From the NCBI GenBank assembly GCA_016218975.1, contig JACRCO010000053.1, positions 15,523-79,522 of the forward strand: DNA of 64,000 nucleotides. Reading direction: 5' to 3'. A program made the position numbers and the translations under genes. Positions 10,703 to 58,182 of this stretch are shown here, in pieces. The DNA comes from Deltaproteobacteria bacterium (lineage in GTDB: Bacteria; Desulfobacterota; Deferrimicrobia; Deferrimicrobiales; Deferrimicrobiaceae). The notes beneath the pieces are model-generated. The model was not told where the DNA came from, made no database searches, and saw only the letters and a list, made by a program, of their open reading frames with translations. Numbering within the stretch: the stretch's first letter is position 1; the number at the start of each line of letters is the position of its first letter.

Positions 10703-10723
10703 TCCCGGGTCGATGGCGTTGCG

Positions 10724-20589: not shown

Positions 20590-20817
20590 GGCGAATCGTT
20601 ATCAGCAAGCCATATGCCAATCCAAATATAGGCATATTGGCCTTATATAACGACATGTTATGAGTTGCAGATTTCCGAAGGGACCGTTTTACGGGGAAAT
20701 AACGAGTGCAGCTTGGGGTTTTCACCGATGCCGGCTGATTTCAACAAACTGTCATATTTTTGACGCTTTGATATAAATTCCCACTATCGACCTTCCGAAA
20801 TATCCACGGGAGGCGCC

Positions 20818-30897: not shown

Positions 30898-30919
30898 CTT
30901 TTGCGACCTTCCCTGCAGC

Positions 30920-31537
30920 CTATTTTCGAAGCGACGCGGAGAACGCCCTGGCCATCTCGGCCGCCGTCTCCTCCGCGAGGTTGTTGATGGAATGGATCCT
31001 GCCTATCCCGAAAACCGTTTCCCTGTCGCTGCCTCGCCGGGAGGCGTTGCCCGCCCAGACGATATCCCCCGTGGAGGCGTCGAGTATGCGAAGGGACATC
31101 GAGACCACCGGAATCTGTCCCGAGCCCCCCGCCCCCGTGGCGATCTGCATGTCGAAGTCGTGCACCGTTCCCATCATGAACAGGTCCACTCCGAGCCCTC
31201 TGCCCAGGGCGACGAGGGTCTCCCTGGGTATGCTGGTCGCCAGCCGTACCCTCTCCTTCGAAAGCATGGCGTTAACCTCGCCGGGATCGAGGACCATAAC
31301 CGGGGCGTTTTTCAGGAGTTCCACGAGGATGTAGCTTTCCATCGATTTCCCCGCCCCCTGGGTCTTGCTCAAATTCTCGAACGGCAGGATCGCCATCTTC
31401 ACCCCTTCGCCTTTCCTGAGGCCGGCGCCGGTGAACGGCTTCAGGGTGGGTCCGCACCCGAACAGCAGCGCGGAGACCAGCAGCAGGGCGGCGATCCGCA
31501 AACGAGACGATCGGCGTCCGGTAACGTGTATTCCCAT
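30920..31537 (-). CDS. Lipoprotein, CsgG/LpoB/DUF799-superfamily-like
   Basis: LLLVSALLFGCGPT lipobox. VKMAILPFENLSKT...VDLFMMGTVHDF...TGDIVW. Confidence 0.7.
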   Translation of the reverse strand: MGIHVTGRRSSRLRIAALLLVSALLFGCGPTLKPFTGAGLRKGEGVKMAILPFENLSKTQGAGKSMESYILVELLKNAPVMVLDPGEVNAMLSKERVRLATSIPRETLVALGRGLGVDLFMMGTVHDFDMQIATGAGGSGQIPVVSMSLRILDASTGDIVWAGNASRRGSDRETVFGIGRIHSINNLAEETAAEMARAFSASLRK

Positions 31538-44786: not shown

Positions 44787-44876
44787 CGAAATGAACAAAC
44801 CTTTTGTTCATTTCGACAACGTATCGAAACGGAAACAATTGCGGCGGAAGGTTACGGATTCGGAAACGTGCGCAAT
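44787..44876. promoter_or_regulatory. 29-bp perfect palindrome plus three GGAAAC direct repeats in a divergent intergenic region
   Basis: CGAAATGAACAAA-cct-TTTGTTCATTTCG (44787..44815), then cgaaacGGAAACAATTGcgg and ttcGGAAACgtgcgcaat. GGAAACAATTG recurs as its reverse complement at 54343..54353. Confidence 0.3.
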
Positions 44877-44973
44877 ATCGCCCTCGTCGGGATATCGACC
44901 CGAATTTTCAGGAGATAATCGGCTTTTGAAAGCAGGAATTCCATCCGGCACGCCGATTGCGTATAAAAACGGC

Positions 44974-45370: not shown

Positions 45371-46759
45371 CTATTCCAACCCGAATTTCTTTATCTGGTA
45401 CCTCAGCGACTGATACGTGACGTTCAGGAGTTTCGCCGCCACCGACTTGTTCTGCCTGCTTCTGTCCAGCGCCTGCACGATGAAATCCCTTTCCACGTCA
45501 TCGAGCGAGATTCCCGATTCGGGCAGCAGGAACCGCACTTCGTTTCCGCTTTCCGGTGACGGCAGCGTGCGAACCATCTCCTTCGGCAGGTGTTCCGGCC
45601 GGATCGTATCCGCATTCTCCAGCACGACGAGCCTTTCGATCACGTTTTTCAATTCCCTGACGTTTCCGGGCCACCGGTAGGTCGTCAGCATTTTCGCGGC
45701 CTCCGGGGAAAATCCTTCCACGTTGCACTTGTTATATCTTTTACGGAAGTAGGAAAGGAAATGCTCCGCAAGGACGGGAATATCCTCCCTACGCTCCCTC
45801 AACGGAGGGATGTTGATGGAAAACGCGTTGAGCCGGTAATAGAGATCCATGCGGAAATCGCCCGTTTCGATCCCCTTCACCAGGTCCCGGTTCGTCGTGG
45901 CGATGACGGCGACGTCGACCGGGATCTCCGACCCGCCCCCGATCCTGCGCACCGCTTTCCGCTCCACGATCCGCAACAGCTTCGTCTGGCAGTTCTGCTT
46001 CATGTCGCCGATCTCGTCGAGAAGAATCGTCCCCTTGTTCGCCATTTCAAAGACGCCTTTTTTATCCGCCTTCGCGTCGGTGAAGGCGCCCTTTTCGTAC
46101 CCGAAGAGCTCGCTCTCCAGGAGAGATTCCGGCAGGGCGGTGCAGTTGACGGGGATGAAAGGCGCCCGCCGGGATGCTTCCTCCCCGTGGATCGACCGGT
46201 GGAGGAACCTCGCGATCACTTCCTTCCCCGTGCCGCTTTCCCCGGTGATAAGCAGCGTGGAAACACGCGCCTGCACCATCTTCCGGATCTTTTCCCGGAT
46301 CTCGCCCGCGGCATCGGAAGCGCCTATGAACTCCGCTTCCGAAAGGTCCGAATGGACAAGCCGGAGGGACTGGACCTCCCGCTCGAGCCGGTCTTTCTCG
46401 AAAACCTTGTCGATGACGATTCCGACCTCTTCGAGGTTGAACGGCTTGGTCAGGTAGTCCACGGCGCCCAGTTTCATCGCCTTGATCGCCGTTTCGGCGG
46501 TGTCGTCCGAGGTAAGCATGATCACCTTCGTATCGATCCGGCTGGCGGTGATTTCCTGGAGGATCTCGATGCCGTTCTTCACGGGCAGCTTTATGTCCAG
46601 GAGGACGATGTCGGGAAGGAACGAGTTGACCAGCCCGAGGACGTCATCGCATTTCGTGTCGGGTTGGATCTCGTATCCCTGCTTCCTGAACCATCTCGAC
46701 AGCGTGGCGACGATCAGCGGATCGTCGTCGACGAGCATTATCTTTCCTCTCGCCGTCAT
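45371..46759 (-). CDS. Sigma-54-dependent response regulator (NtrC family), paralog of the 22991..24379 gene
   Basis: Receiver (IMLVDDDPLIV), AAA+ (GESGTGKE, ESELFGYEKGAFTDA), C-terminal HTH. Confidence 0.9.
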   Translation of the reverse strand: MTARGKIMLVDDDPLIVATLSRWFRKQGYEIQPDTKCDDVLGLVNSFLPDIVLLDIKLPVKNGIEILQEITASRIDTKVIMLTSDDTAETAIKAMKLGAVDYLTKPFNLEEVGIVIDKVFEKDRLEREVQSLRLVHSDLSEAEFIGASDAAGEIREKIRKMVQARVSTLLITGESGTGKEVIARFLHRSIHGEEASRRAPFIPVNCTALPESLLESELFGYEKGAFTDAKADKKGVFEMANKGTILLDEIGDMKQNCQTKLLRIVERKAVRRIGGGSEIPVDVAVIATTNRDLVKGIETGDFRMDLYYRLNAFSINIPPLRERREDIPVLAEHFLSYFRKRYNKCNVEGFSPEAAKMLTTYRWPGNVRELKNVIERLVVLENADTIRPEHLPKEMVRTLPSPESGNEVRFLLPESGISLDDVERDFIVQALDRSRQNKSVAAKLLNVTYQSLRYQIKKFGLE

Positions 46760-48216
46760 CCCGGTTTCCCTTCTTCCTCCACCGTTTTTCGCGGAAGAAC
46801 GATCCGGACAAGGATGCCCCCCGCCGGATTGTTCCCCACGGTGATATCGCCGCCGTGCTGCCCGATGAGCTGCCTGCAGATCGCGAGTCCAAGACCGGTC
46901 CCCTTCGATTTCGTGGTGAAGAAGGGCTGGAAAATCTTGCAGATCATGTCCGGGTCGATTCCCTTGCCCGTGTCCGTGATGTCGATCAGGATGGAATCGC
47001 CGGAGACGTCGTAGTGGGTTCCCACGGCGAACATGCCCCCGCCCGGCATGGCGTCGATGGAATTCAGGAGCAGGTTCAGGAAGACCTGCTGGAGCTGGAC
47101 CGGGTCGGCCATCGTCAAGGGAATCCGGTCGTCAAGGTCCTTGACGATCCGGATGCCGTTTTGCCCTTCGGGGGAAGAACGGTTGGATTTCAGGTAGAAA
47201 TCTATCGTCGTGGCGATGATTTCGTTCAGATCGACGCTCTCCCACTGCGGCTTGGGAGGCTTGGCGAAGTTGAGGAAATTCTTCATCAGGGTTTCGAGCC
47301 TGCCCACTTCGTCGACGATCTGCGAAAAGAGGATCCGGTCCTCGTTCCGCAGCGTCAGTTCCTCGGAGAGCAGGTTCACCGCCGCCTTGATCCCGGCGAG
47401 CGGGTTCTTCACCTCGTGCCCCAATCCCGCCGCCAATTCCCCGACAACCGCCATCTGTTCCGTCCGCTGCATCTGGAGCATCTGCTCCTTGAGGGATCTC
47501 GCCATTTTGTTGAAGGAAGCAGACACCTCCCCGAACTCGTCCTTCAGTCCCTCGATCCGGTAATCGAGATCGCCGCTCTCCAGTCTCCGCGTGGCGGTGA
47601 GAAGCTCGTTCATGGGGCGCGCCAGTCCCCGTATGGACACATACGCGAAGATGACCGAGAAGACGGGTCCCGCCGCGATAAGGACGAAGAGCATCGTCTT
47701 CATCAGCGCAATCTGGCGGAACGCCACCTGGGTGTTCGACGAAAGGTTCCTGCTCGTCAGGGCGACTATGCTGTTCACCTTTTCGATCAGCCCCTGCCCC
47801 GTTACGATGGCGCGGTCCTTCTCGGTCTCCAGCCGGTCGCTCCCTGCGCCGAGCGTCAACACGCGGCTTAAGGCATCCTTGTAATTCTCCGTCATGCGCT
47901 TCAGGTCGTTCAGGTTTTCCAACACCTCGGGCGAGTGGTGGCACGTGAAACACTTGTCGGCCACTTTCCCCATGTGAATGCTGTGGGTCACGATGGTATC
48001 GACGCTGCTGGCGTACCGCGTTCCGCTCAAGGTGAGGTCGGACTGCACGCCCTTGATATGGATCAGCAGGTGTTCCCGGAGAATTTCGACCTGGTGCAGC
48101 TTGATGAGCTTGTCGAGCTTCGAAGTCGCCCGTTCGACGGTGACGATGATGTAGATTCCGCAAAGCGTGAACAGGAAACAGATTACACCCAGGGCGATGA
48201 TGATCTTCTTTTTCAT
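46756..48216 (-). CDS. Sensor histidine kinase with CxxCH in the periplasmic loop, paralog of the 24376..25830 gene
   Basis: N-terminal MKKKIIIALGVICFLFTLCGIYII. Periplasmic KVADKCFTCHHS (about 47938..47952). H-box LAAGLGHEVKNPL, HATPase G-boxes. Confidence 0.85.
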   Translation of the reverse strand: MKKKIIIALGVICFLFTLCGIYIIVTVERATSKLDKLIKLHQVEILREHLLIHIKGVQSDLTLSGTRYASSVDTIVTHSIHMGKVADKCFTCHHSPEVLENLNDLKRMTENYKDALSRVLTLGAGSDRLETEKDRAIVTGQGLIEKVNSIVALTSRNLSSNTQVAFRQIALMKTMLFVLIAAGPVFSVIFAYVSIRGLARPMNELLTATRRLESGDLDYRIEGLKDEFGEVSASFNKMARSLKEQMLQMQRTEQMAVVGELAAGLGHEVKNPLAGIKAAVNLLSEELTLRNEDRILFSQIVDEVGRLETLMKNFLNFAKPPKPQWESVDLNEIIATTIDFYLKSNRSSPEGQNGIRIVKDLDDRIPLTMADPVQLQQVFLNLLLNSIDAMPGGGMFAVGTHYDVSGDSILIDITDTGKGIDPDMICKIFQPFFTTKSKGTGLGLAICRQLIGQHGGDITVGNNPAGGILVRIVLPRKTVEEEGKPG

Positions 48217-49194
48217 CTACTCGTTCGAAAACCGGTAGGTGGCAAGGTCGATTCCGAGTTCCCTGGTATAGGACAGCACCGGCTCGTAGTCGGCATCGGT
48301 CGTCCTGATGAAACTCCGCGCCCCGAACGCCTTCAATACTTTCGCTCCTTCCGGGTCCGCATGCATGGTGACCAGCGCCTCCGAAATCTTCCGTTTCACC
48401 GCATCCTCGAGGGTTTTCCGCAACGCCAGGCCGTTTTCGGGCACATCCGCCGATCTCGCCAGGATCGTGAGCTCGCGGCCGATCCGGGGGTCCTCCGCGG
48501 CAAGCCTTTTGAAAACCGTGTTTTTCGCGGCGCCGATATCCGCCGCGTTTTCGAGCACGTCCCGCACCGTGCCTTCGTGCGTACCCGTAAAGTGCACGTC
48601 GCCGAAATAGGAGTCGATGTTCCCGACCCCGGCCCTTTTCATATGGATCAAGGGGAACAGGTACCCCGCGGTGGTCGCCCTGGCCACCAGCGCGAGCCGC
48701 TTCCCCTTCATCCGGCCGACCGTCCTGATTCCGCTGTTTTTCCGGACGAAGATGACCCCATGATACGTCGATGTCCCGTCCGGCTCTTCTGGCCTGGCGA
48801 GGACCTCGACGCCGAGTTTCGCCTTGGCCAACGAATAGCCGAAACTTCCGAAGAAAGCGCCGTCGAGTTTCAGGGCCTCGAAGTTGTCTATTACATTCCC
48901 GTAGTAGGTCAGCACCTTCAATTTGATCCGGACCCCCGCTTTCTTCGACAGGTAGTCGGCGAGGGGCTCGTACCGCTCGATCTGCTTGAAGATGTTCTGT
49001 TCGGGGATAAGGCCGATGAGAAGAGTGGTTTCCGGAGGCGGCTGCTCGGCCGTTTCCCGGTCTCTCTGCCCGCAGCCCGTAAAAAAAGCGAAGAAGAGAA
49101 AAAGGAATGCCAGGAAACGGGGGAACGCCCGGCGAACCCGGGTTTCGCTCAGAAGGCTTTCCGGAACGCTTTCGAGCCCCCCATACGATGGCAC
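48217..49194 (-). CDS. PhnD/SsuA-like periplasmic substrate-binding lipoprotein (start uncertain)
   Basis: The C-terminal ~300 aa of the 792-aa track ORF matches the PhnD-like paralogs (LIGLIPEQNIFKQIERYEPLADYL...). Lipoprotein N-terminus RRAFPRFLAFLFLFFAFFTGCGQ has no in-frame ATG. The nearest candidate is GTG 49194, which overlaps the upstream gene by ~45 nt. Confidence 0.65.
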   Translation of the reverse strand: MPSYGGLESVPESLLSETRVRRAFPRFLAFLFLFFAFFTGCGQRDRETAEQPPPETTLLIGLIPEQNIFKQIERYEPLADYLSKKAGVRIKLKVLTYYGNVIDNFEALKLDGAFFGSFGYSLAKAKLGVEVLARPEEPDGTSTYHGVIFVRKNSGIRTVGRMKGKRLALVARATTAGYLFPLIHMKRAGVGNIDSYFGDVHFTGTHEGTVRDVLENAADIGAAKNTVFKRLAAEDPRIGRELTILARSADVPENGLALRKTLEDAVKRKISEALVTMHADPEGAKVLKAFGARSFIRTTDADYEPVLSYTRELGIDLATYRFSNE

Positions 49195-50456
49195 TTGCCG
49201 CAGCCGTGCGCCGGGTTGTCTCCCGTCGAAGCGACGCCGGACGGATCCTTCTCTCCGGCGGCAAGAAACGAGCGGGCGCCCGTATCCCAGCGCGTCATGT
49301 TCGCGAAGGGGGATGCATGCGCCTTGTGGCACGTCAGGCAGGATATCCGGTCGCTTCCCGCGATCGTGGCAGGGTCGTTCGCGGACGCAGCGCGGCTTCT
49401 CACGGAAAAATCGGCTTCCGCCTTGACCAGCGGATACTTCCAGTCGTAGCCGGCAGGATTGGGGTTGGCGCCCTGCGAATTTACGACCGCGGCCGCATAC
49501 GAGGCGATCCCGTGCTTCGCCCCCGATTCGCCCATCGGCATGTTGGCCGGGTGCCGGATCCACCCTCCCCCGGCGCGCGTTTTCCCGTTGTCGGAGGATC
49601 GCGTTTCCCCGCTCCCCCCGTGGAAGTCGCCGTGGCAGGCCGAACAGAAGGAGGAAAATCCCCCGCGGTAGACGTTCTTGTTGTCGTCCCCTTCCGTTTT
49701 GGATAGATCCGCACTCTCGAGTTCCTGTCCGTCCTTGCGCCGGTTCAGGTAGGAAGTCCCCTGGATGTCGCCGCGAGAATTGGAAAGGATGGGCTCGAAG
49801 CCCGGCGACGTCGCCCCCAAGGTTCCTCCGGAGCTCTCCACCCCTTTTTCCACGGTTTCGTTCCCGGTATGAACGATCCCGTTGACCCTCCGCTTCAGTT
49901 GCCGCCACGCCGCCACCGTCTCCCCGAACCGGTCGTGGGGATCGTGGCAGCTTACGCAGTCGAAGTTGTTGGCCGAAAAGTTCCCTCCTGGCGCGACGGT
50001 CAGGACCGGATCCGAAGGGATCGATGAGGACTGCGCGCCGCGGGTCTTCCCCGGGCTGTGCCCCTTCCGCGGATCCGTCGAACTCCAGTAGAAATCGCCG
50101 GCGGGAAGGGAGGTTCCGCCCGGCGCGGCGCCGTTGGAAGTCATCACGGCAGGGGCCTTGAATGCGGCATTGCCGGGGGCGAGATGACACTGGAGGCAGA
50201 GGTCCGTCACCGACGGTTTCTTCAGAAGGATAGCGGAAGGGCCGCCGGAGGCCGTCCCCGTGGGCTTCGCCGCACCGTCCTCGCCCGAATGGAGAACGTG
50301 GCAATCGCTGCAAACGAGGCCGTCGGCGGAATGGTAAAGCTTCGTGTTCACGCTCAGGGATATGTCCACGTAGGGGAAGGACGGTGAGGGAAAAACGATT
50401 ATCGACCCGATGGCCAGCGTAAAGAAAATAACGGCAGAAGATTTTGTTCCGATCAC
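49149..50456 (-). CDS. Hexaheme c-type cytochrome, family B paralog (start probably GTG 50456)
   Basis: YHSADGLVCSDCHVLHSG, LPAGDF...KGHSPGK, CVSCHDPHDRFG, CSACHGDFHGG, CLTCHKAHASPFANMTRWDTG, C-terminal GCGKCHRMGG. Signal peptide VIGTKSSAVIFFTLAIGSIIVF after GTG with a GGAGAC RBS. Confidence 0.8.
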   Translation of the reverse strand: MIGTKSSAVIFFTLAIGSIIVFPSPSFPYVDISLSVNTKLYHSADGLVCSDCHVLHSGEDGAAKPTGTASGGPSAILLKKPSVTDLCLQCHLAPGNAAFKAPAVMTSNGAAPGGTSLPAGDFYWSSTDPRKGHSPGKTRGAQSSSIPSDPVLTVAPGGNFSANNFDCVSCHDPHDRFGETVAAWRQLKRRVNGIVHTGNETVEKGVESSGGTLGATSPGFEPILSNSRGDIQGTSYLNRRKDGQELESADLSKTEGDDNKNVYRGGFSSFCSACHGDFHGGSGETRSSDNGKTRAGGGWIRHPANMPMGESGAKHGIASYAAAVVNSQGANPNPAGYDWKYPLVKAEADFSVRSRAASANDPATIAGSDRISCLTCHKAHASPFANMTRWDTGARSFLAAGEKDPSGVASTGDNPAHGCGKCHRMGGSKAFRKAF

Positions 50457-50614
50457 CGTCAGAGTCTCCGCTCGATTCTTCCGAAGGAACCCGTTTGCCG
50501 GGATTCCCGATGGCAACTTTCATTTCGGAAGAAGGAACGGATACCCTTAGCAGCATAACGTCAAGTTTTTGACATATTCGGTAATAAATATTCAATGCAG
50601 GTCCTTGATAGCCG

Positions 50615-50685
50615 GCCGGGGCCCTTAAGCGGCAAAGGGCCCCGGCATCAAATTACCGGGGCCCCCGAGGGGAGGAGAGCCCCGG
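50615..50685 (-). terminator. Two GC-rich stem-loops between the MtrB-like gene and the downstream hexaheme gene
   Basis: gccggggccc-N12-gggccccggc (50615..50646) and ccggggc-N16-gccccgg (50656..50685). No clear U-tract. Possible attenuator or processing site. Confidence 0.35.
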
Positions 50686-50697: not shown

Positions 50698-53172
50698 TTA
50701 GAACTTGTACACCAGGTAGACCTGGCCGACGTGCGCTTCGTAACTCTTGTAAGTCGCGTCGGCGAAGACGAACCTGGTCGAATTCTCGGCCGTCAGCCCC
50801 GCCATGTAGGGCTGCAGGTTGTCCCAGGCGAAATCGTCGAGCTTGTACCACTCGAACAGGTAGCCGACCCCAACCGTCACGTTGCTGAACCACTTGTAGG
50901 CAAGGTTGGCCTTGACCTCGTGCAGCCGGTTGACCACGGAGGGCCAGGGCTGCGCCACCGCGTTGGAGAGCTTTGCGCCGTTGGTGAACCCGTTGGCGAT
51001 AGCCAGGTCCCTGTTGGGGTTGAAGGTGTTGTAGTCCGCTTTGCTGTAAGACAGGTTGTAAGAGGTATCGAGCGTCAGCTTGTTGGGTACGAGCTGCAGC
51101 TTGGCGCCCAAACCCACCGTGTCCGTCGTTTCCTTGATGTCGGTGCTCCAGTAGTTCAGAGGGTTGAAGTTTCCGAAAAGCGTCGTCTCGTTGTCCGTTG
51201 TGGAGGCGATGTCGAAGGAGTCGTCCTTGGCGGCCGAGTCCATCCTGCTCTTCCGGTACTCTCGCAGGTAGCTGAGGATGAGGGAGACCCTCTCGGTTGG
51301 CGTGTAAGTTACATCCAGGCCGCCCCCGGCGTTCTCGACCTTCTTGAGTCCGAACCGGCTGTCCTGGGCCAACTTGTCCCGTAAATACAGGCCGTGGATA
51401 CCGAGAGAAAGGATATCCGACGGGTCGTATGAGAACCTTGCATCTGCCTTGTGGCGCACGCGGTCGGCCCAATCGTAATTCCTCAAGCCCACCGCCTCGG
51501 GGTTTTCCGCCCTGTCGCCCGCCTTGTAACCGTCGACGGTCCGCTTCGCATATTTGTAGGCGGCCTTCAGGTTCGCGGTTTTCGTCGGCTTGTAAAGGAA
51601 GCCGGCGCCGGCGCTCCATTCCGTGGTGGAGTCGATCCGGAGCTTCTCCCGTTTCCATCCCTCCCACCCGGCGTCGAACAGGAGTGTCAGCGGCTTCGAA
51701 GCGTGATAGTCGAGGAGCAGGTTTGCGGTCTGCCGGGTGAAGGAGAGCGGCTCGTTGAAAACGGCCGCGTCGGTTGTGCTGGTGTCGTTTTTGATCAACC
51801 GCCAGTAGGATTCGCCGAATCCGGCATAGCCGGGGAACCGGATCTCGCTCGAATCGTTGTTGTAATCGTAGAAGCGGTACTTAAGCGTCGCCTTGAGCGG
51901 TTCGATCGGCCTGCCGGTGATCTTGAAGCTCCCTGCAAGCGTCTTTACATCGCCGTCCAGGTTCGACTTGGGAAGGCTCCCTGCGTTCGTCACATCGAAG
52001 GTGGGGGATGCTCCAGGGGCGCCGGAGAAGGTCAGGTTGTTCAGGGCGCTGTTCAACGAGTAGGGAACGAACGGGCTGTCCTGCGTGATCCATCCGTAAC
52101 TGACGGTGCCGGAAAACCTGCCGCGGTACGGCAGGTCCGCCCCCCCCGACACGGTGAAGTCGTGCGACTTGCTGTCGGGCGGAAGGGAAAGCTGGCCGCG
52201 TGCGAACCGGCCGCGTTCGAAACCGTTGTCACCGGCCGCGGCCGAAGCGCCTGCCGAGCTCGTCGCGGTGTTGTCGGAGATACGGAACGGGTTGTCCCAG
52301 ATCAGCGCGCCATTGCCGTTGTTGAAATCGGTAAACGTGTATTCGAGGTCCGCCAGCCAGCTTTTCTTGTAGATCCCCGCTCCGACCGAAACGGAGGTCG
52401 TGCGGTAGTCGATCGGCTCCGCAAGGTCGGCCCCGCTCACCACGAACAGGTCGGCGGTGTGCGCAAGCCCGCTTCCCTGGGCGTAGCGTTCGTACGTCCC
52501 GGCCGTGATCACCCTGGCGCCGGTCCGCTTTTCGTTCGTCACCTTGGCCCAGGTTTTGACGTCCTGGGAAATGTTCAGTTCGAGCGAGAAGCCGGCCTTC
52601 TCACGCTTGAGCTTGAACGTGAACGGATTGGCTTCCGAATAAAGTCCCCTGACGATCGACTGGGCAAGCGCGTCCTCACCGGTGGTATCGGTGATAACGT
52701 TCCCGCGCTCCACGCGCGTTTGTTCCACCGCCTGGAGGGCGCTCTGGACGTTATCGGGAATGGAGAGCCGGTTGGTCCCTGCGCCGTTGAACAGGAGCGT
52801 GCCGCCGCTGAAGTTGTGGGGTATGGTGTCGAAGTAGATGTTGTACTTGAACTTGCCGTGCTTCCCGCCCGTCACGCTGTAGTATTCGTTTTCCTGCGCG
52901 GGATTCTTGATCTTCACGTCGAGGAAGTACCCCGCGTCTCGCTCCATCTTGAACGCGGCATCGTTGAACAGGAAGCCGTTCTTCACGTCGCGGTACTCCT
53001 CGAACTTCTCGTCGGAGCCCCTGACGTTCTTCTGCTGCACGGCGGCGTCGACCTGCCCGGAGGTCTCCCCGATCCAGGCGCCGAACTGCTGCTGGGCTTG
53101 CGCCGTTCCGGCGTACAGCGCGAGCGACAGGAGCAGGGCGGCCGCCGCGCATGCGATTTTTCCGCGAATCAT
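50698..53172 (-). CDS. MtrB/PioB-family outer-membrane porin candidate (decaheme-associated beta-barrel), about 825 aa
   Basis: ORF trimmed to ATG 53172 (GGAGGAA RBS; MIRGKIACAAAALLLSLALYAGTAQA). Ends YLVYKF. Gly/Tyr/Asp-rich barrel-like repeats. Immediately downstream of an MtrA/DmsE-family decaheme gene; size close to PioB/MtoB. Confidence 0.7.
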   Translation of the reverse strand: MIRGKIACAAAALLLSLALYAGTAQAQQQFGAWIGETSGQVDAAVQQKNVRGSDEKFEEYRDVKNGFLFNDAAFKMERDAGYFLDVKIKNPAQENEYYSVTGGKHGKFKYNIYFDTIPHNFSGGTLLFNGAGTNRLSIPDNVQSALQAVEQTRVERGNVITDTTGEDALAQSIVRGLYSEANPFTFKLKREKAGFSLELNISQDVKTWAKVTNEKRTGARVITAGTYERYAQGSGLAHTADLFVVSGADLAEPIDYRTTSVSVGAGIYKKSWLADLEYTFTDFNNGNGALIWDNPFRISDNTATSSAGASAAAGDNGFERGRFARGQLSLPPDSKSHDFTVSGGADLPYRGRFSGTVSYGWITQDSPFVPYSLNSALNNLTFSGAPGASPTFDVTNAGSLPKSNLDGDVKTLAGSFKITGRPIEPLKATLKYRFYDYNNDSSEIRFPGYAGFGESYWRLIKNDTSTTDAAVFNEPLSFTRQTANLLLDYHASKPLTLLFDAGWEGWKREKLRIDSTTEWSAGAGFLYKPTKTANLKAAYKYAKRTVDGYKAGDRAENPEAVGLRNYDWADRVRHKADARFSYDPSDILSLGIHGLYLRDKLAQDSRFGLKKVENAGGGLDVTYTPTERVSLILSYLREYRKSRMDSAAKDDSFDIASTTDNETTLFGNFNPLNYWSTDIKETTDTVGLGAKLQLVPNKLTLDTSYNLSYSKADYNTFNPNRDLAIANGFTNGAKLSNAVAQPWPSVVNRLHEVKANLAYKWFSNVTVGVGYLFEWYKLDDFAWDNLQPYMAGLTAENSTRFVFADATYKSYEAHVGQVYLVYKF

Positions 53173-53210
53173 CTGCCGTTCCTCCGTGGAATGTATATTC
53201 GTCATGTTCG

Positions 53211-54116
53211 TCACCTCTGCAGGACCGGTCCGGACGGGTTGTTGGACCCGTGGATCATCGGGTGGCAGTTCAGGCAGGACCTGTTTATGGCGTAGGCGGA
53301 GTTCGTGGAGAGGGTCCCCGTCTGATGCCTTCCCTGCATGTGGCACTGCTGGCAGAGGCGCGGCGCTTTCTGTACCAGCATCTTGTCGAAGGAAGACCCG
53401 TGCGCGGCGTGGCAGGTGAGGCAGTCCTCCTTGACCGGCGAATGTTCCCAGAGAACCGGCGCCTTCTTCTCCGCGTGGCATTCGTAACACTTGTCGTTGA
53501 CGGACTTGGCGTTTATGAGCTTCTCGCTCCTTGCTCCGTGCGGGTTGTGGCATGCGGAGCAGCCCATCTTCCCCTCCTGGGTCGGGGAAGAGGAATCCCG
53601 CATCGGGTGCTTCGACCTCTTAAGCATCGTGGCGCGCACCTCTCCGTGGCAACCGAAGCAGACCTGCTTTTCATCGGCATTGGAAAGAAGGTGCTGCTTC
53701 CCTCCATGCACCTTGTGGCAGGCGACGCAGCCGGCTTCCTGGCTGTCGTGGGCGCTCCCCTTCCAGAACAACTGCACCTTGTCTTTGGAATGGCAGGAAG
53801 CGCAGACCGCCGTGGCGGCTTCCGCCGCGATTTTGGCCGGGTTGACGATTTTGGTCTTGTCCCCCTCTTTCACGTGTTCCGCCGCGGGGCCGTGGCACGA
53901 TTCGCAGCCGCTTATCTTCGCGCCGTAGTACGCGGTCTTAGAGTGGATGTTGGTGCGGAAAGGTCCGACGATCGCTTCATGGCACTCCTTGCATTTCTCG
54001 CTTCCGACGTAGCCGCCGCCGTCCGCGGCGAGCACGAGCATGGCCGCCGCCAGGATCAGAAAGACCGCCAGCGCCGCCACCCGGACGAGCCTTACGGGCT
54101 TAGCCGTTTCTCTCAT
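53211..54116 (-). CDS. MtrA/PioA/DmsE-family periplasmic decaheme cytochrome c
   Basis: ORF trimmed to ATG 54116 (AAGGAGG RBS; MRETAKPVRLVRVAALAVFLILAAAMLVLAA). Exactly 10 CxxCH motifs in about 300 aa, ending ...CQQCHMQGRHQ...CLNCHPMIHGSN as in the MtrA family. Confidence 0.85.
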   Translation of the reverse strand: MRETAKPVRLVRVAALAVFLILAAAMLVLAADGGGYVGSEKCKECHEAIVGPFRTNIHSKTAYYGAKISGCESCHGPAAEHVKEGDKTKIVNPAKIAAEAATAVCASCHSKDKVQLFWKGSAHDSQEAGCVACHKVHGGKQHLLSNADEKQVCFGCHGEVRATMLKRSKHPMRDSSSPTQEGKMGCSACHNPHGARSEKLINAKSVNDKCYECHAEKKAPVLWEHSPVKEDCLTCHAAHGSSFDKMLVQKAPRLCQQCHMQGRHQTGTLSTNSAYAINRSCLNCHPMIHGSNNPSGPVLQR

Positions 54117-54331
54117 CAAACCGAACCTCCTTTGTCTGTGCGTTTCTATCGATCGATCCCGAAAAGCTTCAACTGCTTCCTGAGATGTTGAAAAAAACAA
54201 TTTTGATTTATCCAGAGGGATTCTCAGCAATCGGCATGCCGATTATGGCAGGCGGAAGCGCTGACGAATTTTCAAACTATTATCGAAAGGTTAGGGGGCG
54301 AATGACTGAGACGTCTCACTGCAGGCAAGTT

Positions 54332-54393
54332 GTTGAAGTCAACAATTGTTTCCATAGGGAAACAAAGAGAAGGCCACGTTTCCATATGGAAAC
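54332..54393. promoter_or_regulatory. Three adjacent palindromes upstream of the mtrA-like gene
   Basis: GTTGAagTCAAC (54332..54343), TGTTTCCATAGGGAAACA (54347..54364), and the perfect 16-bp GTTTCCATATGGAAAC (54378..54393). They lie ~215-285 bp upstream of the mtrA-like start and are candidate activator sites. Confidence 0.35.
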
Positions 54394-54424
54394 ATGGCCG
54401 GTCGTATCCGGGAGTAATCCTTCT

Positions 54425-55792
54425 CTATCCTTTCAGGCGCTCCCAAAGAGCCTTGCGGCCTATGCCCAAAAGCTCCGAGGCGCCGGTCTTGCTTCCCCCC
54501 GTTGCCCTTAGCGCCCGCTGAATATGATCGAGCTCGAACCGCCTTACCGCCTCCTTCAACGGGAGGATCGCCCGGGGGTCGGAATTCTCACCGGAGGATG
54601 TATTGAGCGAGTCCGGGATCTCCGGTGGAAGGTGCCTGGGCTCGATCGTCCCTTCCCTGCAAAGAATGGTGGCGCGCTCGACGATGTTCCACAATTCCCG
54701 GACGTTCCCCGGGTAACCGTAGTTCATGAGGAGCGACATCGAGCTTTCGGAGACGCTGCGGTTGCCTCCGAGTTTCCCGACGAAATTTTCGACGAGCAGG
54801 GGAACGTCCTCGAGCCGATCGCGCAGCGGGGGAAGCCGGATCGCGAAGACGTTCAACCGATAAAACAGGTCCTCCCGAAACCCACCCTCGGCGACCATCG
54901 ACTTCAGGTCGTCCTTGTTCGTTGCAGTGACTATGCGGATGTCGACCGGAACGTTTTCGTGCCCGCCGATCCTCGTGATGACGCGCTCCTGGAGCACACG
55001 CAAAAGCTTCGCCTGCGCCGGGAGCGGCATATCCGCTATTTCGTCGAGGAAAAGGGTGCCCCCGCCTGCCTGCTCGATCTTGCCTTCGGTGCGTTTCAGC
55101 GCCCCGGTGAAGGCGCCCTTCTCGAAACCGAAAAGCTCCGCTTCGAACAGGGTTTCGGGTATCGCCGCGCAGTTGAGCGCCACGAACGGCCCGTCTTTCC
55201 TTTTTCCACGCCGGTGGACCGCCCTCGCGACCAGCTCTTTACCGGTGCCGCTCTCCCCGAGGATAAGCACAGTGGCGTCGGTATCGGCTACAAGCGTGAC
55301 GAGGTCGAAAACCTCCCGCATTGGCTTGCTCTTTCCGATCAGCTCCTCGAAACGCGACTGCGATGCGATGAGCTTCTTAAGGTCCCGGTTTTCCTCTTCG
55401 AGCGCCCTGACGCGCAGGACCTTGTTCAGCAGCAGCATGAACTCTTCCATCGAGAACGGCTTGGTCAGGTAATCTTCGGCGCCGAGTTTCATCGCCGCCA
55501 CGGCGGATTCGACGCTGCCGAAACCGGTGATGGTTATGACTGACGGAGCCGGGGTTTTCGACTTCGCCTCCTTGAGGACTTCCAGCCCGTCTTTGCCGGG
55601 AAGCCTTATGTCCGTAACGACGATGTCGAACGTTTCCGAAGCGAGCAGGCGGACCGCATCCCCGCCGTCGTCCGCGGAGGAGACGGCGTATCCCGCTTCT
55701 TCAAGGTTGTCCGTCAAGGTGAAGCGCAATCCAGGATCGTCTTCCACGACCAGGATCCGTCGGCAAGGCGTGTCCATCGTGGCCCCTTTCAT
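54425..55792 (-). CDS. Sigma-54-dependent response regulator (NtrC family)
   Basis: Receiver (RILVVEDDPGLR...DIVVTDIRLPGKDG), AAA+ (GESGTGKE, EAELFGFEKGAFTGA), C-terminal HTH. Start is ATG 55792 or 55777. Confidence 0.9.
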   Translation of the reverse strand: MKGATMDTPCRRILVVEDDPGLRFTLTDNLEEAGYAVSSADDGGDAVRLLASETFDIVVTDIRLPGKDGLEVLKEAKSKTPAPSVITITGFGSVESAVAAMKLGAEDYLTKPFSMEEFMLLLNKVLRVRALEEENRDLKKLIASQSRFEELIGKSKPMREVFDLVTLVADTDATVLILGESGTGKELVARAVHRRGKRKDGPFVALNCAAIPETLFEAELFGFEKGAFTGALKRTEGKIEQAGGGTLFLDEIADMPLPAQAKLLRVLQERVITRIGGHENVPVDIRIVTATNKDDLKSMVAEGGFREDLFYRLNVFAIRLPPLRDRLEDVPLLVENFVGKLGGNRSVSESSMSLLMNYGYPGNVRELWNIVERATILCREGTIEPRHLPPEIPDSLNTSSGENSDPRAILPLKEAVRRFELDHIQRALRATGGSKTGASELLGIGRKALWERLKG

Positions 55793-57277
55793 CTATGTAG
55801 GCGAGCACGGCAGAGAGATGAAAAACGTCGTGCCGTCTCCCGGCCTGGAGGTAACGCGCATTCTCCCCCCGTGCTGTTCCACGATTTTCTTGCAAACCGC
55901 GAGCCCAAGTCCGGTCCCCTTCCCCGCTACTTTCGTCGTGAAGAACGGCTCGAATATCCTTTCGTGGTTCTCCTCCGGGATCCCGCAGCCCGTATCCGCC
56001 ACGACAAGGGTATGGAATTGCCCGTCGTTCATGTGCCCGATATCCAGCTTTCCCCCGGAAGGCATGGCGGCGACGGCGTTCAGCACCAGGTTGACCATGA
56101 CCTGTTCGATCTTGTGGGCGTCCGCTCTCACGGTCACGGAAGGAACGCGGTTCGCCACCTCTATCCGCCCCTTGTCGAGCTGGAAGTCCAGGAGCTCGAG
56201 CGTCTTCCCGACGAGGACCCGGAGGTTGCATTCGGAATAGTGCGTCGCATGCACCGTCGAGTAGTCGAGAAGCTGCGAGACCGCACGGTGGATGCTTTCG
56301 AGACTTTCGCCGACCACCGTAAGGTACTGCTCCCGCTTGTGGGGAGGCAGCGACTCCTTCTTAAGCGCCTGGACTCCGTGCATCGCCCCCGTCAGCGGGC
56401 TGTTGACTTCGTGCGCAAGTCCGGCGGCCAGCGTCCCGATAGTCGCCATTTTCTCGGTGCCGGTCAGAAGCTCCTGGGTCCTTTTTCGCTCGACCTCCTC
56501 TTCTCTCAGCCGGTTCACCATGATCCGGTAGCTGTCGTAGAGCTTGCCCAGCTCGTCGTTACGGCCGGGGAGCGGGGCGGGGTCGAGGTTTCCCAGCCGC
56601 ACCGAATCAAGCGCGTCCGACAATCGGCGGATCGGCCTCGTCATTATCCTGGCGGCGGCGAAGACGGCAAATACGAGGACGAACGCGGCGGAAAGCGATA
56701 TGAACAGGATTTTCCTGCTCAGCGCGTTGACTTCATCGGCCATTCCCGCGAGGGAATAGCCGATGCGCAGGGTCCCGAACCGCTTGGATGAGATGCTCAA
56801 CGGCGCCGCCACGTCGATCAAGCCGCCGTCCAGCGGCTCCCCGACCATGGTGAGTGTTATGTCGGAGGCGGACAGCGCCTTCGCGGTCAAGGGGTCGTCC
56901 GGATGCTTGCGAAACTGCGTCAGGTCGCTGTGGGAGAGGACGACGCCGTCCGGACCGAGGACCATGGCGTAGGTCACGCGCATGTCCTTGTTTCCGGCAA
57001 GCCGCGCAATGTAGAGGTCCAGCAGCCCCGCCTCGGCCACAAGGCCGATCTCTTCATAGAGCAAAACCTGGGTGATGGGAAACCGCATCGAAACGGCCAG
57101 GGTCCGCGCCGCACGCCTCTCCCTTTCCAGGAGATGGCTCTTTTCCTCCTCGACGAGGGAAACATGCAGGGCCAGCGCGAAGAAAAAGATGGCTGCCACT
57201 CCCGCGGTCGTGAACTTCCCCGCCAGAGAGGAAAAGGGGCGTCTTATTATTTCAGGAACGGATTCGATGAGTGGCAA
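55793..57277 (-). CDS. Sensor histidine kinase (two TM helices, periplasmic domain without heme motif, HAMP, HisKA, HATPase); start uncertain (TTG 57277?)
   Basis: H-box LAAGLAHEVNSPL, G-boxes DTGCGIP / GTGLGLAVCK. No ATG between the upstream stop and TM1; TTG 57277 would overlap the PhnD-like gene by 30 nt. Confidence 0.75.
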   Translation of the reverse strand: MPLIESVPEIIRRPFSSLAGKFTTAGVAAIFFFALALHVSLVEEEKSHLLERERRAARTLAVSMRFPITQVLLYEEIGLVAEAGLLDLYIARLAGNKDMRVTYAMVLGPDGVVLSHSDLTQFRKHPDDPLTAKALSASDITLTMVGEPLDGGLIDVAAPLSISSKRFGTLRIGYSLAGMADEVNALSRKILFISLSAAFVLVFAVFAAARIMTRPIRRLSDALDSVRLGNLDPAPLPGRNDELGKLYDSYRIMVNRLREEEVERKRTQELLTGTEKMATIGTLAAGLAHEVNSPLTGAMHGVQALKKESLPPHKREQYLTVVGESLESIHRAVSQLLDYSTVHATHYSECNLRVLVGKTLELLDFQLDKGRIEVANRVPSVTVRADAHKIEQVMVNLVLNAVAAMPSGGKLDIGHMNDGQFHTLVVADTGCGIPEENHERIFEPFFTTKVAGKGTGLGLAVCKKIVEQHGGRMRVTSRPGDGTTFFISLPCSPT

Positions 57278-58182
57278 CGGATGCCGCAACCCCCGGCGCC
57301 GGTTATCGAAGTGATCTTGCGGTAAAGGAAATCGTACTCTTCGCCGTGCGCTGTAACGAATCCCCCGCGGATTTCCGGCCCGAGGCCTTCCGATCCGGAC
57401 CGCCCTCTTTCCTTCGTTTCGTCGATCGACAGGAGGGCCCCCGTCAACGCCTTCTCCGCATCCATGGAAAGGGACGGACCCGCTGCGATCGGCGCGTTCG
57501 GCAGCTCTTCCGACACGGCGACGACCCGCAGCCCCTGATCCTTGTACTTCCACGCGACGACGTCCTTCACGGCCCCCGCTTCGAAAACCCCCTTCAGAAC
57601 CGCCCTTGCAACCTCCTCGTGATTGCGCAGATTCTTCCTGCGACCGAGTTTGTCGGGGGTCACGCCCGCTTCGCAAAGCATTATCGTGGGAATCAGGCTG
57701 CCGGTCGTGGAACGCCGGGCTCCGAACGCGAAACTTCGTCCTTTCAGATCGGACAATTTCCGGACGGGGCTGTCGCTCCGAACGATGATGTTGCACCGAT
57801 ACGCCGACTTCCCCTGCGCGTTCAATGGCTTTACGAGCGCCCGTGCGCCGAATCGGTGCCTGGCAAGGGCGTAAGTCGCGCCGCCGAGATACGCGACGTC
57901 GGTGACTCCCTTGCGCAGATCTTCTATCGTTTCCATGTAAGATCGGCCGATCCGGAGCTCGAATCTATATGGGGTATTCCGCGAAAGGTAATCCATCAGC
58001 GGCTGGTAATATTCGTACATCACGTGAGGATTGAACCTCGGGATGACGCCGAAACGGATGGTCCTGTTTCCCGAATTTTCGGGAAAGCCCGCTGTCGCGG
58101 GAGCCGCAATGAGGAAAGCAAGAAAAAAGGCCCCCCACACCCTGTGGCGGGCAATGAGCACACTCTTCAATACGCTTCGCAT
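57247..58182 (-). CDS. PhnD-like (phosphate/phosphonate ABC) periplasmic substrate-binding protein
   Basis: Signal peptide MRSVLKSVLIARHRVWGAFFLAFLIAAPATA. RFGVIPRFNP...VAYLGGATYA...RSTTGSLIP pattern of the PhnD/TIGR01098-like family. Confidence 0.75.
   Translation of the reverse strand: MRSVLKSVLIARHRVWGAFFLAFLIAAPATAGFPENSGNRTIRFGVIPRFNPHVMYEYYQPLMDYLSRNTPYRFELRIGRSYMETIEDLRKGVTDVAYLGGATYALARHRFGARALVKPLNAQGKSAYRCNIIVRSDSPVRKLSDLKGRSFAFGARRSTTGSLIPTIMLCEAGVTPDKLGRRKNLRNHEEVARAVLKGVFEAGAVKDVVAWKYKDQGLRVVAVSEELPNAPIAAGPSLSMDAEKALTGALLSIDETKERGRSGSEGLGPEIRGGFVTAHGEEYDFLYRKITSITGAGGCGIRCHSSNPFLK

What the first reader, a model, noticed from the sequence alone, without database searches (positions are those of the whole stretch)
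54332..54393. Three palindromes upstream of the MtrA-like gene
GTTGA-ag-TCAAC, TGTTTCCATAGGGAAACA and the perfect 16-bp GTTTCCATATGGAAAC lie in a row. They are located 215-285 bp upstream of the mtrA-like start, a typical enhancer distance for sigma-54 activators, and just downstream of an NtrC-type regulator gene. I could not identify a convincing -24/-12 element in between.
Basis: seen in the sequence. Interest (0 to 1): 0.55.

Follow-up and report, generated by a model that had tools for sequence, protein, structure and literature searches.

The report
Sigma-54 enhancer of a cytochrome operon

Summary
All three palindromes are in the sequence where stated. Two are real signals. GTTTCC-N4-GGAAAC occurs only twice in 64 kb (0 expected), with centres 30 bp apart. 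The third, GTTGAagTCAAC, is at chance level and is not conserved.

All genes lie on the minus strand, in the order: PhnD-like binding protein, sCache/HAMP histidine kinase, NtrC-type sigma-54 activator, 308-bp spacer, MtrA-like decahaem cytochrome, MtrB/PioB porin.

In 10 independent orthologous loci (activator 67-86% identical) the spacer keeps only four blocks:
- two YGTTTC-N6-GAAACR palindromes, 30 or 33 bp apart
- an IHF-like block
- a GGCAY-N5-TTGCW -24/-12 element, in the window at 54227-54241 on the minus strand

The GG always lies 112.5-115.5 bp from the proximal palindrome, while the promoter-to-ATG distance varies from 62 to 279 bp. The half-sites are invariant; the inner six bases vary and are not complementary. 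This indicates protein recognition, not an RNA stem.

The layout matches the arsenite system AioXSR: tandem GTTNC-N6-GNAAC sites, a -24/-12 promoter, and the same LWE(K/R) recognition-helix signature. The proteins are not AioXSR orthologues and the target differs.

This is a new member of a known kind, of moderate interest.

The parts
54377..54394 (.). Distal activator site (UAS-2): cGTTTCCATATGGAAACa, centre about -170 from the predicted transcription start. It is embedded in a longer dyad at 54372-54399.
   Evidence: An exact GTTTC-N6-GAAAC is present at the same place in 10 of 10 orthologous spacers. As RNA on the minus strand it also forms a 12-bp hairpin with a TTCTCTTTGT tail.
54347..54364 (.). 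Proximal activator site (UAS-1): tGTTTCCATAGGGAAACa, centre about -140. It lies 30 bp (centre to centre) from UAS-2.
   Evidence: The site is exact in 9 of 10 orthologous spacers and degenerate in L082 (GCATC...GAAAC). Spacing is 30 bp in 7 loci and 33 bp in 2.
54281..54293 (+). IHF-like block TATCGAAAGGTTA, with 8 of 9 specified positions of WATCAR-N4-TTR, about 47 bp upstream of the -24 GG.
   Evidence: This is the only conserved block between the UAS and the promoter in alignment A1, with invariant A133, A134, G141 and A144. The consensus is quoted from PMC7962754. Its function is inferred.
54227..54241 (-). Sigma-54 promoter, -24/-12 element CGGCATGCCGATTGC. GG is at 54239-54240 and GC at 54227-54228. 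The predicted start is near 54215.
   Evidence: GG, A and TTGC are invariant in 10 of 10 orthologous spacers. The GG lies 112.5-115.5 bp from the proximal palindrome centre in every locus. The background rate of GG[CT]A[CT]-N5-TTGC is 2e-5 per strand-bp.
54117..54215 (-). Predicted 5' untranslated leader (about 100 nt) with ribosome-binding site AAGGAGG at 54126-54132.
   Evidence: Leader length is not conserved (62-279 nt in orthologues). There are no Rfam matches.
53211..54116 (-). Target gene 1: MtrA-like periplasmic decahaem c-type cytochrome (301 aa, 10 CxxCH).
   Evidence: Pfam Paired_CXXCH_1 and others. NCBIfam TIGR03508, DmsE family decahaem, 238.8 bits against a cutoff of 192.2. Haem motif count.
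50698..53205 (-). Target gene 2: MtrB/PioB-type outer-membrane beta-barrel porin (835 aa).
   Evidence: Pfam PF11854 MtrB_PioB, 437 bits. It follows the MtrA-like gene in 9 of the 10 orthologous loci; in L092 other cytochrome genes follow.
54425..55792 (-). Presumed cognate activator: NtrC-type response regulator and bacterial enhancer-binding protein (receiver, AAA+ with GAFTGA, HTH_8). The public annotation starts 5 codons later.
   Evidence: The recognition helix IGRKALWERLK is invariant in orthologues.
55793..57259 (-). Sensor histidine kinase (sCache_3_2, HAMP, HisKA, HATPase_c). The start coordinate is approximate.
   Evidence: It is conserved upstream of the activator gene in the loci that reach that far.
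57247..58182 (-). PhnD-family periplasmic solute-binding protein, presumed ligand sensor of the three-component system.
   Evidence: Pfam Phosphonate-bd, 215.6 bits. Its PDB relatives are PtxB, ArrX and AioX. It is the first gene of the conserved cluster.

Best explanation
The two GTTTC-N6-GAAAC palindromes are the upstream activating sequences of a sigma-54 promoter that drives the mtrA-like/mtrB-like porin-cytochrome operon.

Proposed mechanism, all steps inferred:
1. The periplasmic PhnD-like protein binds an unknown ligand, probably anionic.
2. It signals to the sCache/HAMP histidine kinase.
3. The kinase phosphorylates the NtrC-type activator encoded immediately upstream.
4. Activator dimers bind the two 16-18 bp palindromes. 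The centres are 30 bp apart, about three helical turns, so both dimers sit on roughly the same face and nucleate the AAA+ hexamer.
5. A bend at the conserved IHF-like block loops the hexamer onto the sigma-54 holoenzyme, which sits closed on GGCAT-N5-TTGC.
6. ATP hydrolysis opens the promoter.

Shown here: the anatomy, its conservation, and its exclusive association with this gene cluster.
Inferred: which protein binds, the direction of regulation, the role of the IHF-like block, and the ligand.
For: 1. Non-randomness. The motif occurs only twice in 64 kb (0 expected). It is absent from 1.36 Mb of paralogous loci.

2. Phylogenetic footprint.
- 10 independent loci with 67-86% identical activators share the synteny: PhnD-like, kinase, activator, spacer, MtrA-like, usually MtrB-like.
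- In spacers with 49% mean column identity, only four blocks are conserved: both palindromes, CTAAC-N-G-N2-A, and GG.A...TTGC.
- 19 of 20 sites are exact at the 10 half-site positions.

3. Geometry.
- Palindrome spacing is 30 or 33 bp.
- The proximal centre lies 112.5-115.5 bp from the GG in all 10 loci, while the -12-to-ATG distance varies from 62 to 279 bp.
- The chance of a promoter-like hit falling in a given 4-bp slot is 8e-5 per locus.

4. Sequence is conserved, not pairing. The inner six bases are complementary in only 5-7 of 19 sites.

5. The activator is competent. It has receiver, AAA+ with GAFTGA, and HTH_8 domains.

6. Natural control. In L089 an orthologous activator (67% identical) is followed by an MFS gene instead of mtrA, and it has neither palindromes nor promoter.

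7. Precedent.
- AioR, a sigma-54 activator partnered with the PhnD-like AioX, binds GTT-N10-AAC. The footprinted site is GTTCGGATTTCCGAAC (PMC5335332).
- GTTNC-N6-GNAAC is predicted as its site in Burkholderiales (PMC3673622).
- Two tandem palindromes plus a -24/-12 element occur in 12 aioBA operons (PMC3834237).
- In NT-26 I found the two sites 33 bp apart.

8. Recognition helix. The motif LWE[KR] is present in every orthologue and in both AioR proteins, but in only 1 of about 134 paralogue tails.
Against: - There is no experimental binding or expression data.
- No rpoN gene lies in the 64-kb window, so sigma-54 itself is assumed from the presence of activators.
- The -24/-12 match alone is not significant in the window: 36 hits at up to 2 mismatches against 48 expected. 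Its weight comes only from conservation.
- The distal palindrome can also form a strong RNA hairpin with a T-rich tail in this genome.
- The flanks of the distal palindrome show some extra dyad symmetry across loci, so it may have a second role.
- Assignment to the adjacent activator rests on co-localisation. A second paralogous activator lies 8 kb away.
- The IHF-like block matches the E. coli consensus well only in some loci.
Confidence: 0.8

Rival explanations
1. The palindromes act at the RNA level. The distal one (54372-54399, minus strand) would be the intrinsic terminator of the binding-protein/kinase/activator operon, and the proximal one a second hairpin. The resemblance between the two would then be incidental.
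For: - The terminator scan finds a 12-pair stem followed by TTCTCTTTGT directly after the activator gene.
- The hairpin energy is -21.9 kcal/mol.
- The 85-nt region folds with a z-score of -5.6.
- Five of 10 orthologues have stems of 8 bp or more around the distal site.
- Flank pairs show some covariation: score 0.161 against 0.103 +/- 0.023, reached by 3 of 500 shuffles. Position -3/+20 is paired in 8 of 10 loci with three pair types.
- L081 has a T7 run after its distal site.
Against: - Hairpin strength ranges from -5 to -35 kcal/mol, and T tracts are present in only 2 of 10 loci.
- What is invariant is the half-site sequence, not the pairing. The inner six bases are unconstrained.
- Two copies of the same sequence at a fixed 30/33-bp spacing, and at a fixed distance from a -24/-12 element, have no explanation under this model.
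- The orthologous activator gene in L089, which lacks the downstream mtrA operon, has no such hairpin.
- A terminator role for the distal site in this genome may exist in addition to the UAS role, not instead of it.
Confidence: 0.1
2. The palindromes are operators for a different transcription factor. Candidates are the paralogous activator at 45371-46759, a CRP/FNR-, Rex- or Rrf2-type redox regulator, or a repressor. The adjacent activator would then act elsewhere.
For: - Binding was not tested.
- 16-bp dyads are used by many dimeric regulators.
- The window encodes a second PhnD-like/kinase/activator module.
- Redox regulators commonly control respiratory cytochromes (general knowledge).
Against: - The only regulator gene consistently next to the motif in all 10 loci is this activator. 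Several loci (L083, L084, L085, L175) have no second module within the 6 kb held on each side.
- The paralogue has a different recognition helix, NVTYQSLRYQIKK.
- No sigma-70-like promoter is found in the region. Positions of -140 and -170 from a sigma-54 promoter are enhancer positions, not class I/II activator or operator positions.
- The motif class GTTnC-N6-GnAAC is the one documented for the sigma-54 activator AioR, which shares the LWE[KR] helix.
Confidence: 0.08
3. The palindromes are non-functional repeats, either chance palindromes or REP/MITE-like intergenic elements.
For: The third palindrome, GTTGAagTCAAC, is indeed at chance level.
Against: For the two GTTTC sites:
- 0 copies are expected and only 2 are present in 64 kb.
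- There are no further copies in the window.
- Their position and sequence are conserved in 10 loci whose surrounding spacer has diverged to 49% column identity.
Confidence: 0.01

Closest known systems
AioXSR three-component system and the AioR enhancer upstream of aioBA (arsenite oxidase), Rhizobium/Pseudorhizobium NT-26, Agrobacterium, Herminiimonas
   Same: - The gene order is the same: PhnD-family periplasmic binding protein, histidine kinase, sigma-54 NtrC-type activator, then the regulated respiratory operon.
- Both have two tandem 16-bp palindromes of the form GTTnC-N6-GnAAC / GTYCG-N6-CGRAC plus a -24/-12 promoter (PMC3834237, PMC3673622, PMC5335332).
- The sites are 33 bp apart in NT-26, against 30 or 33 bp here.
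- The recognition helix is I(G/S)R(K/T)(A/T)LWE(R/K), which is otherwise rare among paralogues.
   Different: - The target is a porin-cytochrome conduit, not arsenite oxidase.
- The activator is only 39-40% identical to AioR, the same as to its own paralogue.
- The binding protein is closer to phosphite-binding PtxB (3.5e-20) than to ArrX (5e-14) or AioX (2.6e-11).
- The kinase carries an sCache_3_2 domain.
- The enhancer is about 115 bp from the GG here, against about 62 bp in NT-26.
- The half-site is GTTTC.
- The lineage is Candidatus Deferrimicrobiota-like, not Proteobacteria.
NtrC enhancer at glnAp2 and NifA UAS/IHF/nifH promoters (classical bEBP architecture)
   Same: Both have tandem dyad sites about three helical turns apart, centred near -140, an IHF-type bend site in between, a GG-N10-GC promoter, and an activator with receiver, AAA+ (GAFTGA) and Fis-type HTH domains. 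The classical positions come from my own knowledge. The usual separation of 100-140 bp is quoted in PMC7962754.
   Different: - The site sequence differs: NtrC uses TGCACC-N5-GGTGCA and NifA uses TGT-N10-ACA (own knowledge).
- The protein stays below every NCBIfam equivalog cutoff, for example NtrC 434.7 against 558.6 and AtoC 447.9 against 714.
- The signal and the regulon differ.
BccR-cbcBA of Geobacter sulfurreducens
   Same: A sigma-54-dependent response-regulator-type activator encoded next to, and required for induction of, a multihaem cytochrome operon used in metal respiration (bioRxiv 10.1101/2021.04.15.440034).
   Different: - The target there is an inner-membrane bc-type quinol oxidoreductase, not an outer-membrane porin-cytochrome pair.
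- The regulator is divergently transcribed.
- No PhnD-like partner is reported, and no binding motif is given in the passages I read.
TtrSR / ThsSR sensors with PhnD-like periplasmic domains
   Same: A PhnD-fold ligand-binding module senses an anionic respiratory substrate (tetrathionate, thiosulfate) and controls the adjacent respiratory operon (PMC5408782).
   Different: There the PhnD-like domain is fused to the kinase. As far as I know those regulators are not sigma-54 activators.

Membership tests
bEBP-dependent sigma-54 promoter with upstream activating sequences | -24 GG and -12 GC separated by 10 nt, matching TGGCAC-N5-TTGCW | tested here: met
   CGGCATGCCGATTGCT lies at 54227-54241 on the minus strand. 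GG, A and TTGC are invariant in 10 of 10 orthologous spacers.
bEBP-dependent sigma-54 promoter with upstream activating sequences | Dyad-symmetric activator sites roughly 80-200 bp upstream of the promoter, often in tandem on one helical face | tested here: met
   There are two 16-18 bp palindromes with centres 30 (or 33) bp apart. The proximal centre is 112.5-115.5 bp from the GG in all 10 loci.
bEBP-dependent sigma-54 promoter with upstream activating sequences | A cognate activator with an AAA+ sigma-54 interaction domain (GAFTGA loop) and a DNA-binding HTH | tested here: met
   Pfam Sigma54_activat 235.7 bits and HTH_8 40.8 bits. GAFTGA is present. The gene is adjacent in every locus.
bEBP-dependent sigma-54 promoter with upstream activating sequences | DNA-bending (IHF) site between the enhancer and the promoter | tested here: inconclusive
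   A conserved block lies at 54281-54293. It matches 8 of 9 specified positions of WATCAR-N4-TTR in the window but only 6-7 of 9 in the two other loci I scored by eye (L081, L083). IHF genes were not examined.
bEBP-dependent sigma-54 promoter with upstream activating sequences | rpoN present in the genome, and transcription dependent on it and on the activator | not testable with these tools
   No RpoN-box ORF lies in the 64-kb window. The rest of the genome and expression data are not available.
AioXSR-type three-component regulatory system | PhnD-family periplasmic binding protein, histidine kinase and sigma-54 activator genes clustered next to the regulated operon | tested here: met
   with conserved synteny. 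Compare the NT-26 aioX-aioS-aioR-aioBA locus.
AioXSR-type three-component regulatory system | Tandem GTT-N10-AAC type palindromes (GTTNC-N6-GNAAC) plus a -24/-12 element upstream of the target | tested here: met
.
AioXSR-type three-component regulatory system | Binding protein belongs to the AioX/ArxX/ArrX arsenic-oxyanion subfamily | tested here: not met
   The best PDB relatives are PtxB phosphite-binding proteins (3.5e-20). ArrX scores 5e-14 and AioX 2.6e-11. By contrast, ArrX against AioX scores 5e-35.
AioXSR-type three-component regulatory system | Activator orthologous to AioR | tested here: not met
   It is 39-40% identical to the two AioR proteins, no more than to the in-window paralogue (39%). 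Only the recognition helix is specifically shared.
AioXSR-type three-component regulatory system | Regulated operon is arsenite oxidase aioBA | tested here: not met
   The downstream genes are a decahaem cytochrome and an MtrB_PioB porin.
Intrinsic (rho-independent) terminator | Stable GC-rich stem-loop followed by a U tract at the 3' end of a transcription unit, maintained across relatives | tested here: inconclusive
   The feature is met in the window for the distal site. Across 10 loci the energy ranges from -5 to -35 kcal/mol and a T tract is present in only 2. There is some flank covariation. The feature is absent after the orthologous gene in L089.
MtrAB/PioAB/MtoAB-type porin-cytochrome module (the regulated genes) | Periplasmic decahaem MtrA/DmsE-family cytochrome followed by an MtrB/PioB beta-barrel | tested here: met
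   TIGR03508 238.8 bits against a cutoff of 192.2, with 10 CxxCH motifs. PF11854 437 bits.

The most novel reading that the evidence does not exclude
The cluster is a previously undescribed branch of AioXSR-like 'binding protein + kinase + sigma-54 activator' systems, retaining the AioR-type DNA recognition (LWE[KR] helix, GTTnC-N6-GnAAC tandem sites). In Deferrimicrobiota-like bacteria it has been recruited to switch on an outer-membrane MtrA/MtrB electron conduit in response to a specific periplasmic ligand. In the known systems the binding protein senses the substrate of the regulated enzyme. The ligand of this PhnD-like protein would therefore reveal the physiological electron donor or acceptor of an otherwise uncharacterised conduit. 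A second paralogous module in the same cytochrome island would point to ligand-specific control of different extracellular electron-transfer routes.
Probability: 0.4. Interest if true: 0.6.

Novelty: new member of a known kind. Interest (0 to 1): 0.42.

Why it matters
Little is known about how outer-membrane porin-cytochrome conduits are regulated outside Shewanella and Geobacter. My literature searches found no report of a sigma-54 enhancer or a PhnD-type three-component sensor controlling an MtrAB-like operon.

This result provides:
- a defined cis-element, YGTTTC-N6-GAAACR in two copies, plus an IHF-like block and a -24/-12 promoter
- a candidate dedicated regulator for an uncultured, iron-cycling lineage (Deferrimicrobiota/MBNT15, PMC9386147)
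- a practical handle: the ligand of the binding protein could identify what the conduit is used for

It also extends the AioR-type recognition code beyond arsenic metabolism. The mechanism itself is textbook, so the surprise for a specialist is moderate.

Tried and rejected
They returned only 40-49% identical paralogues. These served only as 1.36 Mb of negative-control sequence.

2. An exact-sequence look-up of the window's 455-aa ORF failed. The public annotation starts 5 codons later (P0001).

3. The orthologues came from the search for homologous proteins plus 11 contig look-ups.

4. Fetching aio plasmids by guessed accession numbers failed. I reached them instead through an AioX fragment taken from PDB alignments.

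5. Rfam found nothing in 53900-54600.

6. The sigma-70 promoter scan found nothing in the spacer.

7. The Desulfovibrio sigma-54 regulome paper contains no GTTTC or GAAAC string. The MBNT15 genome paper does not discuss regulators of the cytochrome clusters.

8. Rejected:
- The third palindrome as part of the element: it is at chance level and unconserved.
- A global 'cytochrome motif': only 1 of 11 multihaem ORFs is preceded by it.
- Membership in AioXSR proper: three defining features are not met.

Full report
OBSERVATION

- GTTGAAGTCAAC at 54332-54343
- tGTTTCCATAGGGAAACa at 54347-54364
- GTTTCCATATGGAAAC at 54378-54393

The last two are copies of one motif. GTTTCC-N4-GGAAAC matches exactly twice in the 64-kb window, against 0.00 expected from shuffles. 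The relaxed forms GTTTC-N6-GAAAC and GTTNC-N6-GNAAC also hit only these two positions.

The first palindrome is unremarkable. Perfect 5-bp-arm inverted repeats with loops of 0-6 occur 698 times in the window, about 3.4 per 308 bp.

CONTEXT

Everything relevant is on the minus strand, in this order:
- a PhnD-family periplasmic binding protein (57247-58182)
- an sCache_3_2/HAMP histidine kinase (about 55793-57259)
- an NtrC-type response regulator with Sigma54_activat, an intact GAFTGA loop and HTH_8 (54425-55792)
- a 308-bp spacer
- an MtrA-like decahaem cytochrome (53211-54116; TIGR03508 above its cutoff, 10 CxxCH)
- an MtrB_PioB porin (50698-53205)

The palindromes start 31 bp after the activator's stop codon. 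They lie 216-277 bp upstream of the cytochrome ATG.

The activator is identical (over the annotated 450 aa) to a protein of a 'Deltaproteobacteria bacterium' MAG. Some of its relatives are labelled Candidatus Deferrimicrobiaceae (lineage; PMC9386147).

THE MISSING PROMOTER

On its own this match is not significant, since 36 such hits occur in the window against 48 expected. Its weight comes from comparison with related loci.

COMPARATIVE EVIDENCE

Protein-seeded scans of the two big contig collections returned only paralogues. A homology search found about 100 orthologue clusters at 65-86% identity, and contig look-ups yielded 10 independent loci with the same synteny.

In an alignment of the spacers (49% mean column identity) only four blocks are conserved:
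- the distal palindrome
- the proximal palindrome
- a CTAAC-N-G-N2-A block
- GG.A...TTGC

Nineteen of 20 palindrome sites are exact at all ten half-site positions, and L082's proximal site is degenerate. The consensus is YGTTTC-N6-GAAACR.

The geometry is also conserved:
- The two centres are 30 bp apart in most loci (eight counting L082's degenerate proximal site) and 33 bp apart in two.
- The first G of the -24 GG lies 112.5-115.5 bp from the proximal centre in all ten.
- The distance from -12 to the ATG ranges from 62 to 279 nt.

The promoter pattern occurs at 2e-5 per strand-bp in 1.36 Mb of unrelated loci. Ten co-positioned hits therefore cannot be chance.

The motif is absent elsewhere:
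- from the rest of each 7.5-13 kb locus
- from the 1.36 Mb of paralogue loci
- from L089, where an orthologous activator (67% identical) is followed by an MFS transporter instead of mtrA
- from L178, a 55% relative

The third palindrome of the finding is not conserved anywhere.

PROTEIN SITE OR RNA HAIRPIN?

The half-sites never vary. The inner six bases vary freely and are complementary in only 5-7 of 19 sites. That is the signature of sequence-specific recognition by a dimeric protein, not of a stem.

The distal site is nevertheless embedded in a longer dyad in this genome (GGCCATGTTTCC/GGAAACGTGGCC, -21.9 kcal/mol) followed by TTCTCTTTGT, so the terminator scan flags it. Across loci the picture is mixed:
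- Hairpin energy runs from -5 to -35 kcal/mol, and T tracts appear in only two loci.
- Pair counting shows some extra dyad symmetry in the distal flanks: covariation 0.161 against 0.103 +/- 0.023, and position -3/+20 paired in 8 of 10.

I therefore keep a terminator function as a possible add-on for the distal site, not as the explanation of the pair. No Rfam family matches the region, and no sigma-70-like promoter is present.

MECHANISM

With the C of the -12 GC at 54227, the start is predicted near 54215. That places the palindrome centres near -140 and -170 and the conserved middle block near -71.

The middle block reads TATCGAAAGGTTA on the plus strand (54281-54293). It matches 8 of 9 specified positions of the IHF consensus WATCAR-N4-TTR in the window, and fewer in the two other loci I scored.

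This is the canonical enhancer / bend site / sigma-54 promoter architecture. Activator-to-promoter distances of 100-140 bp are typical (PMC7962754). The most likely mechanism is this:
1. The ligand-bound PhnD-like protein activates the kinase.
2. The phosphorylated activator binds both dyads and oligomerises.
3. It contacts the closed sigma-54 holoenzyme complex through a DNA loop and remodels it by ATP hydrolysis.
4. The mtrA-like/mtrB-like operon is induced.

The anatomy, its conservation and its exclusive association with this cluster are shown here. Binding, activation and the signal are inferred.

COMPARISON WITH KNOWN SYSTEMS

The closest precedent is AioXSR.
- The PhnD-like AioX, the kinase AioS and the sigma-54 activator AioR control aioBA.
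- AioR's documented site is GTT-N10-AAC, footprinted as GTTCGGATTTCCGAAC (PMC5335332).
- The predicted site is GT[CT]CG-N6-CG[GA]AC in Rhizobiales and GTTNC-N6-GNAAC in Burkholderiales (PMC3673622).
- Two tandem palindromes plus a -24/-12 element occur upstream of all 12 aioBA operons that have aioXSR (PMC3834237).

I fetched the NT-26 and Hydrogenophaga loci. NT-26 has two sites 33 bp apart, with a TGGCAC-N5-TTGC about 62 bp further on.

The window's motif fits the Burkholderiales formula exactly. Its activator shares the helix-3 signature I(G/S)R(K/T)(A/T)LWE(R/K) with both AioRs.

Membership in AioXSR proper fails, however:
- The activator is 39-40% identical to AioR, no more than to its in-window paralogue.
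- The binding protein is closer to PtxB than to ArrX or AioX.
- The target is a porin-cytochrome pair.
- NCBIfam places the activator below every equivalog cutoff.

So it works like AioXSR but is not an AioXSR. Other relevant precedents are BccR-cbcBA in Geobacter, a sigma-54 activator for a cytochrome operon, and the PhnD-like sensing domains of TtrS and ThsS.

VERDICT

The element is a new member of a known kind. The specific regulator-target pairing was not found in the literature I searched. Confidence in the UAS/sigma-54 explanation is about 0.8. Interest is moderate at 0.42.

Noticed in passing
window 7435-8850, 8720-10723, 27751-31002 and eight further ORFs: The window is a multihaem cytochrome island. 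Eleven ORFs have 4 or more CxxCH motifs, including ORFs with 42, 26 and 16 motifs. The GTTTC-N6-GAAAC motif precedes only the MtrA-like one.
   Followed up: partly
window 45371-49100 (minus strand): A second, paralogous PhnD-like / HAMP kinase / NtrC-type module lies downstream of the conduit genes. Its activator is 39% identical to the first. It carries GAFTDA instead of GAFTGA and has a different recognition helix, NVTYQSLRYQIKK.
   Followed up: partly
window 44787-44815 and 44946-44960 (plus strand): A perfect 13-bp-arm palindrome, CGAAATGAACAAA/TTTGTTCATTTCG, lies about 140 bp upstream of a second sigma-54-like element, CGGCACGCCGATTGC. That element differs by one base from the mtrA promoter. 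Its -12 is only about 14 nt before the ATG (44974) of a receiver-only response-regulator gene. It may be the enhancer and promoter of the second module.
   Followed up: partly
window 20605-20619 (minus strand): Another good sigma-54-like element, TGGCATATGGCTTGC, lies only 16 nt upstream of the ATG at 20589 of ORF 19600-20589. GG[CT]A[CT]-N5-TTGC is about 3.5 times more frequent in this window than in 1.36 Mb of unrelated loci.
   Followed up: no
window 50615-50646: A GC-rich perfect 12-bp-arm inverted repeat, GCCGGGGCCCTT/AAGGGCCCCGGC, lies between the mtrB-like stop and the next cytochrome gene (49149-50516). No T tract follows it, so it is unclear whether the operon ends here.
   Followed up: partly
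L089 7351-7487 (also L090, L091): In the abundant groundwater lineage represented by P0079 (seen on many contigs), the orthologous binding-protein/kinase/activator cluster is followed by an MFS transporter and another activator/kinase pair instead of mtrAB. The 137-bp spacer has neither palindromes nor a -24/-12 element. The target of that orthologue is therefore elsewhere or lost.
   Followed up: partly
L083, L085, L175, L086 versus window, L081: The conserved regulated unit is only mtrA-like plus mtrB-like. An outer multihaem cytochrome gene follows in the window and L081. It does not follow in L083, L085, L175 or L086, a two-gene layout reminiscent of PioAB/MtoAB-type modules.
   Followed up: no
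L179 9520-9635 (Pseudorhizobium NT-26 plasmid): In the NT-26 aio locus the distal AioR-type dyad GTTCGGGGAACTGAAC overlaps the aioR stop codon. The proximal GTTCGAGAATGCGAAC lies 33 bp further on, and TGGCACAACGATTGC follows about 62 bp later. This is a much tighter enhancer-promoter spacing than in the window.
   Followed up: partly
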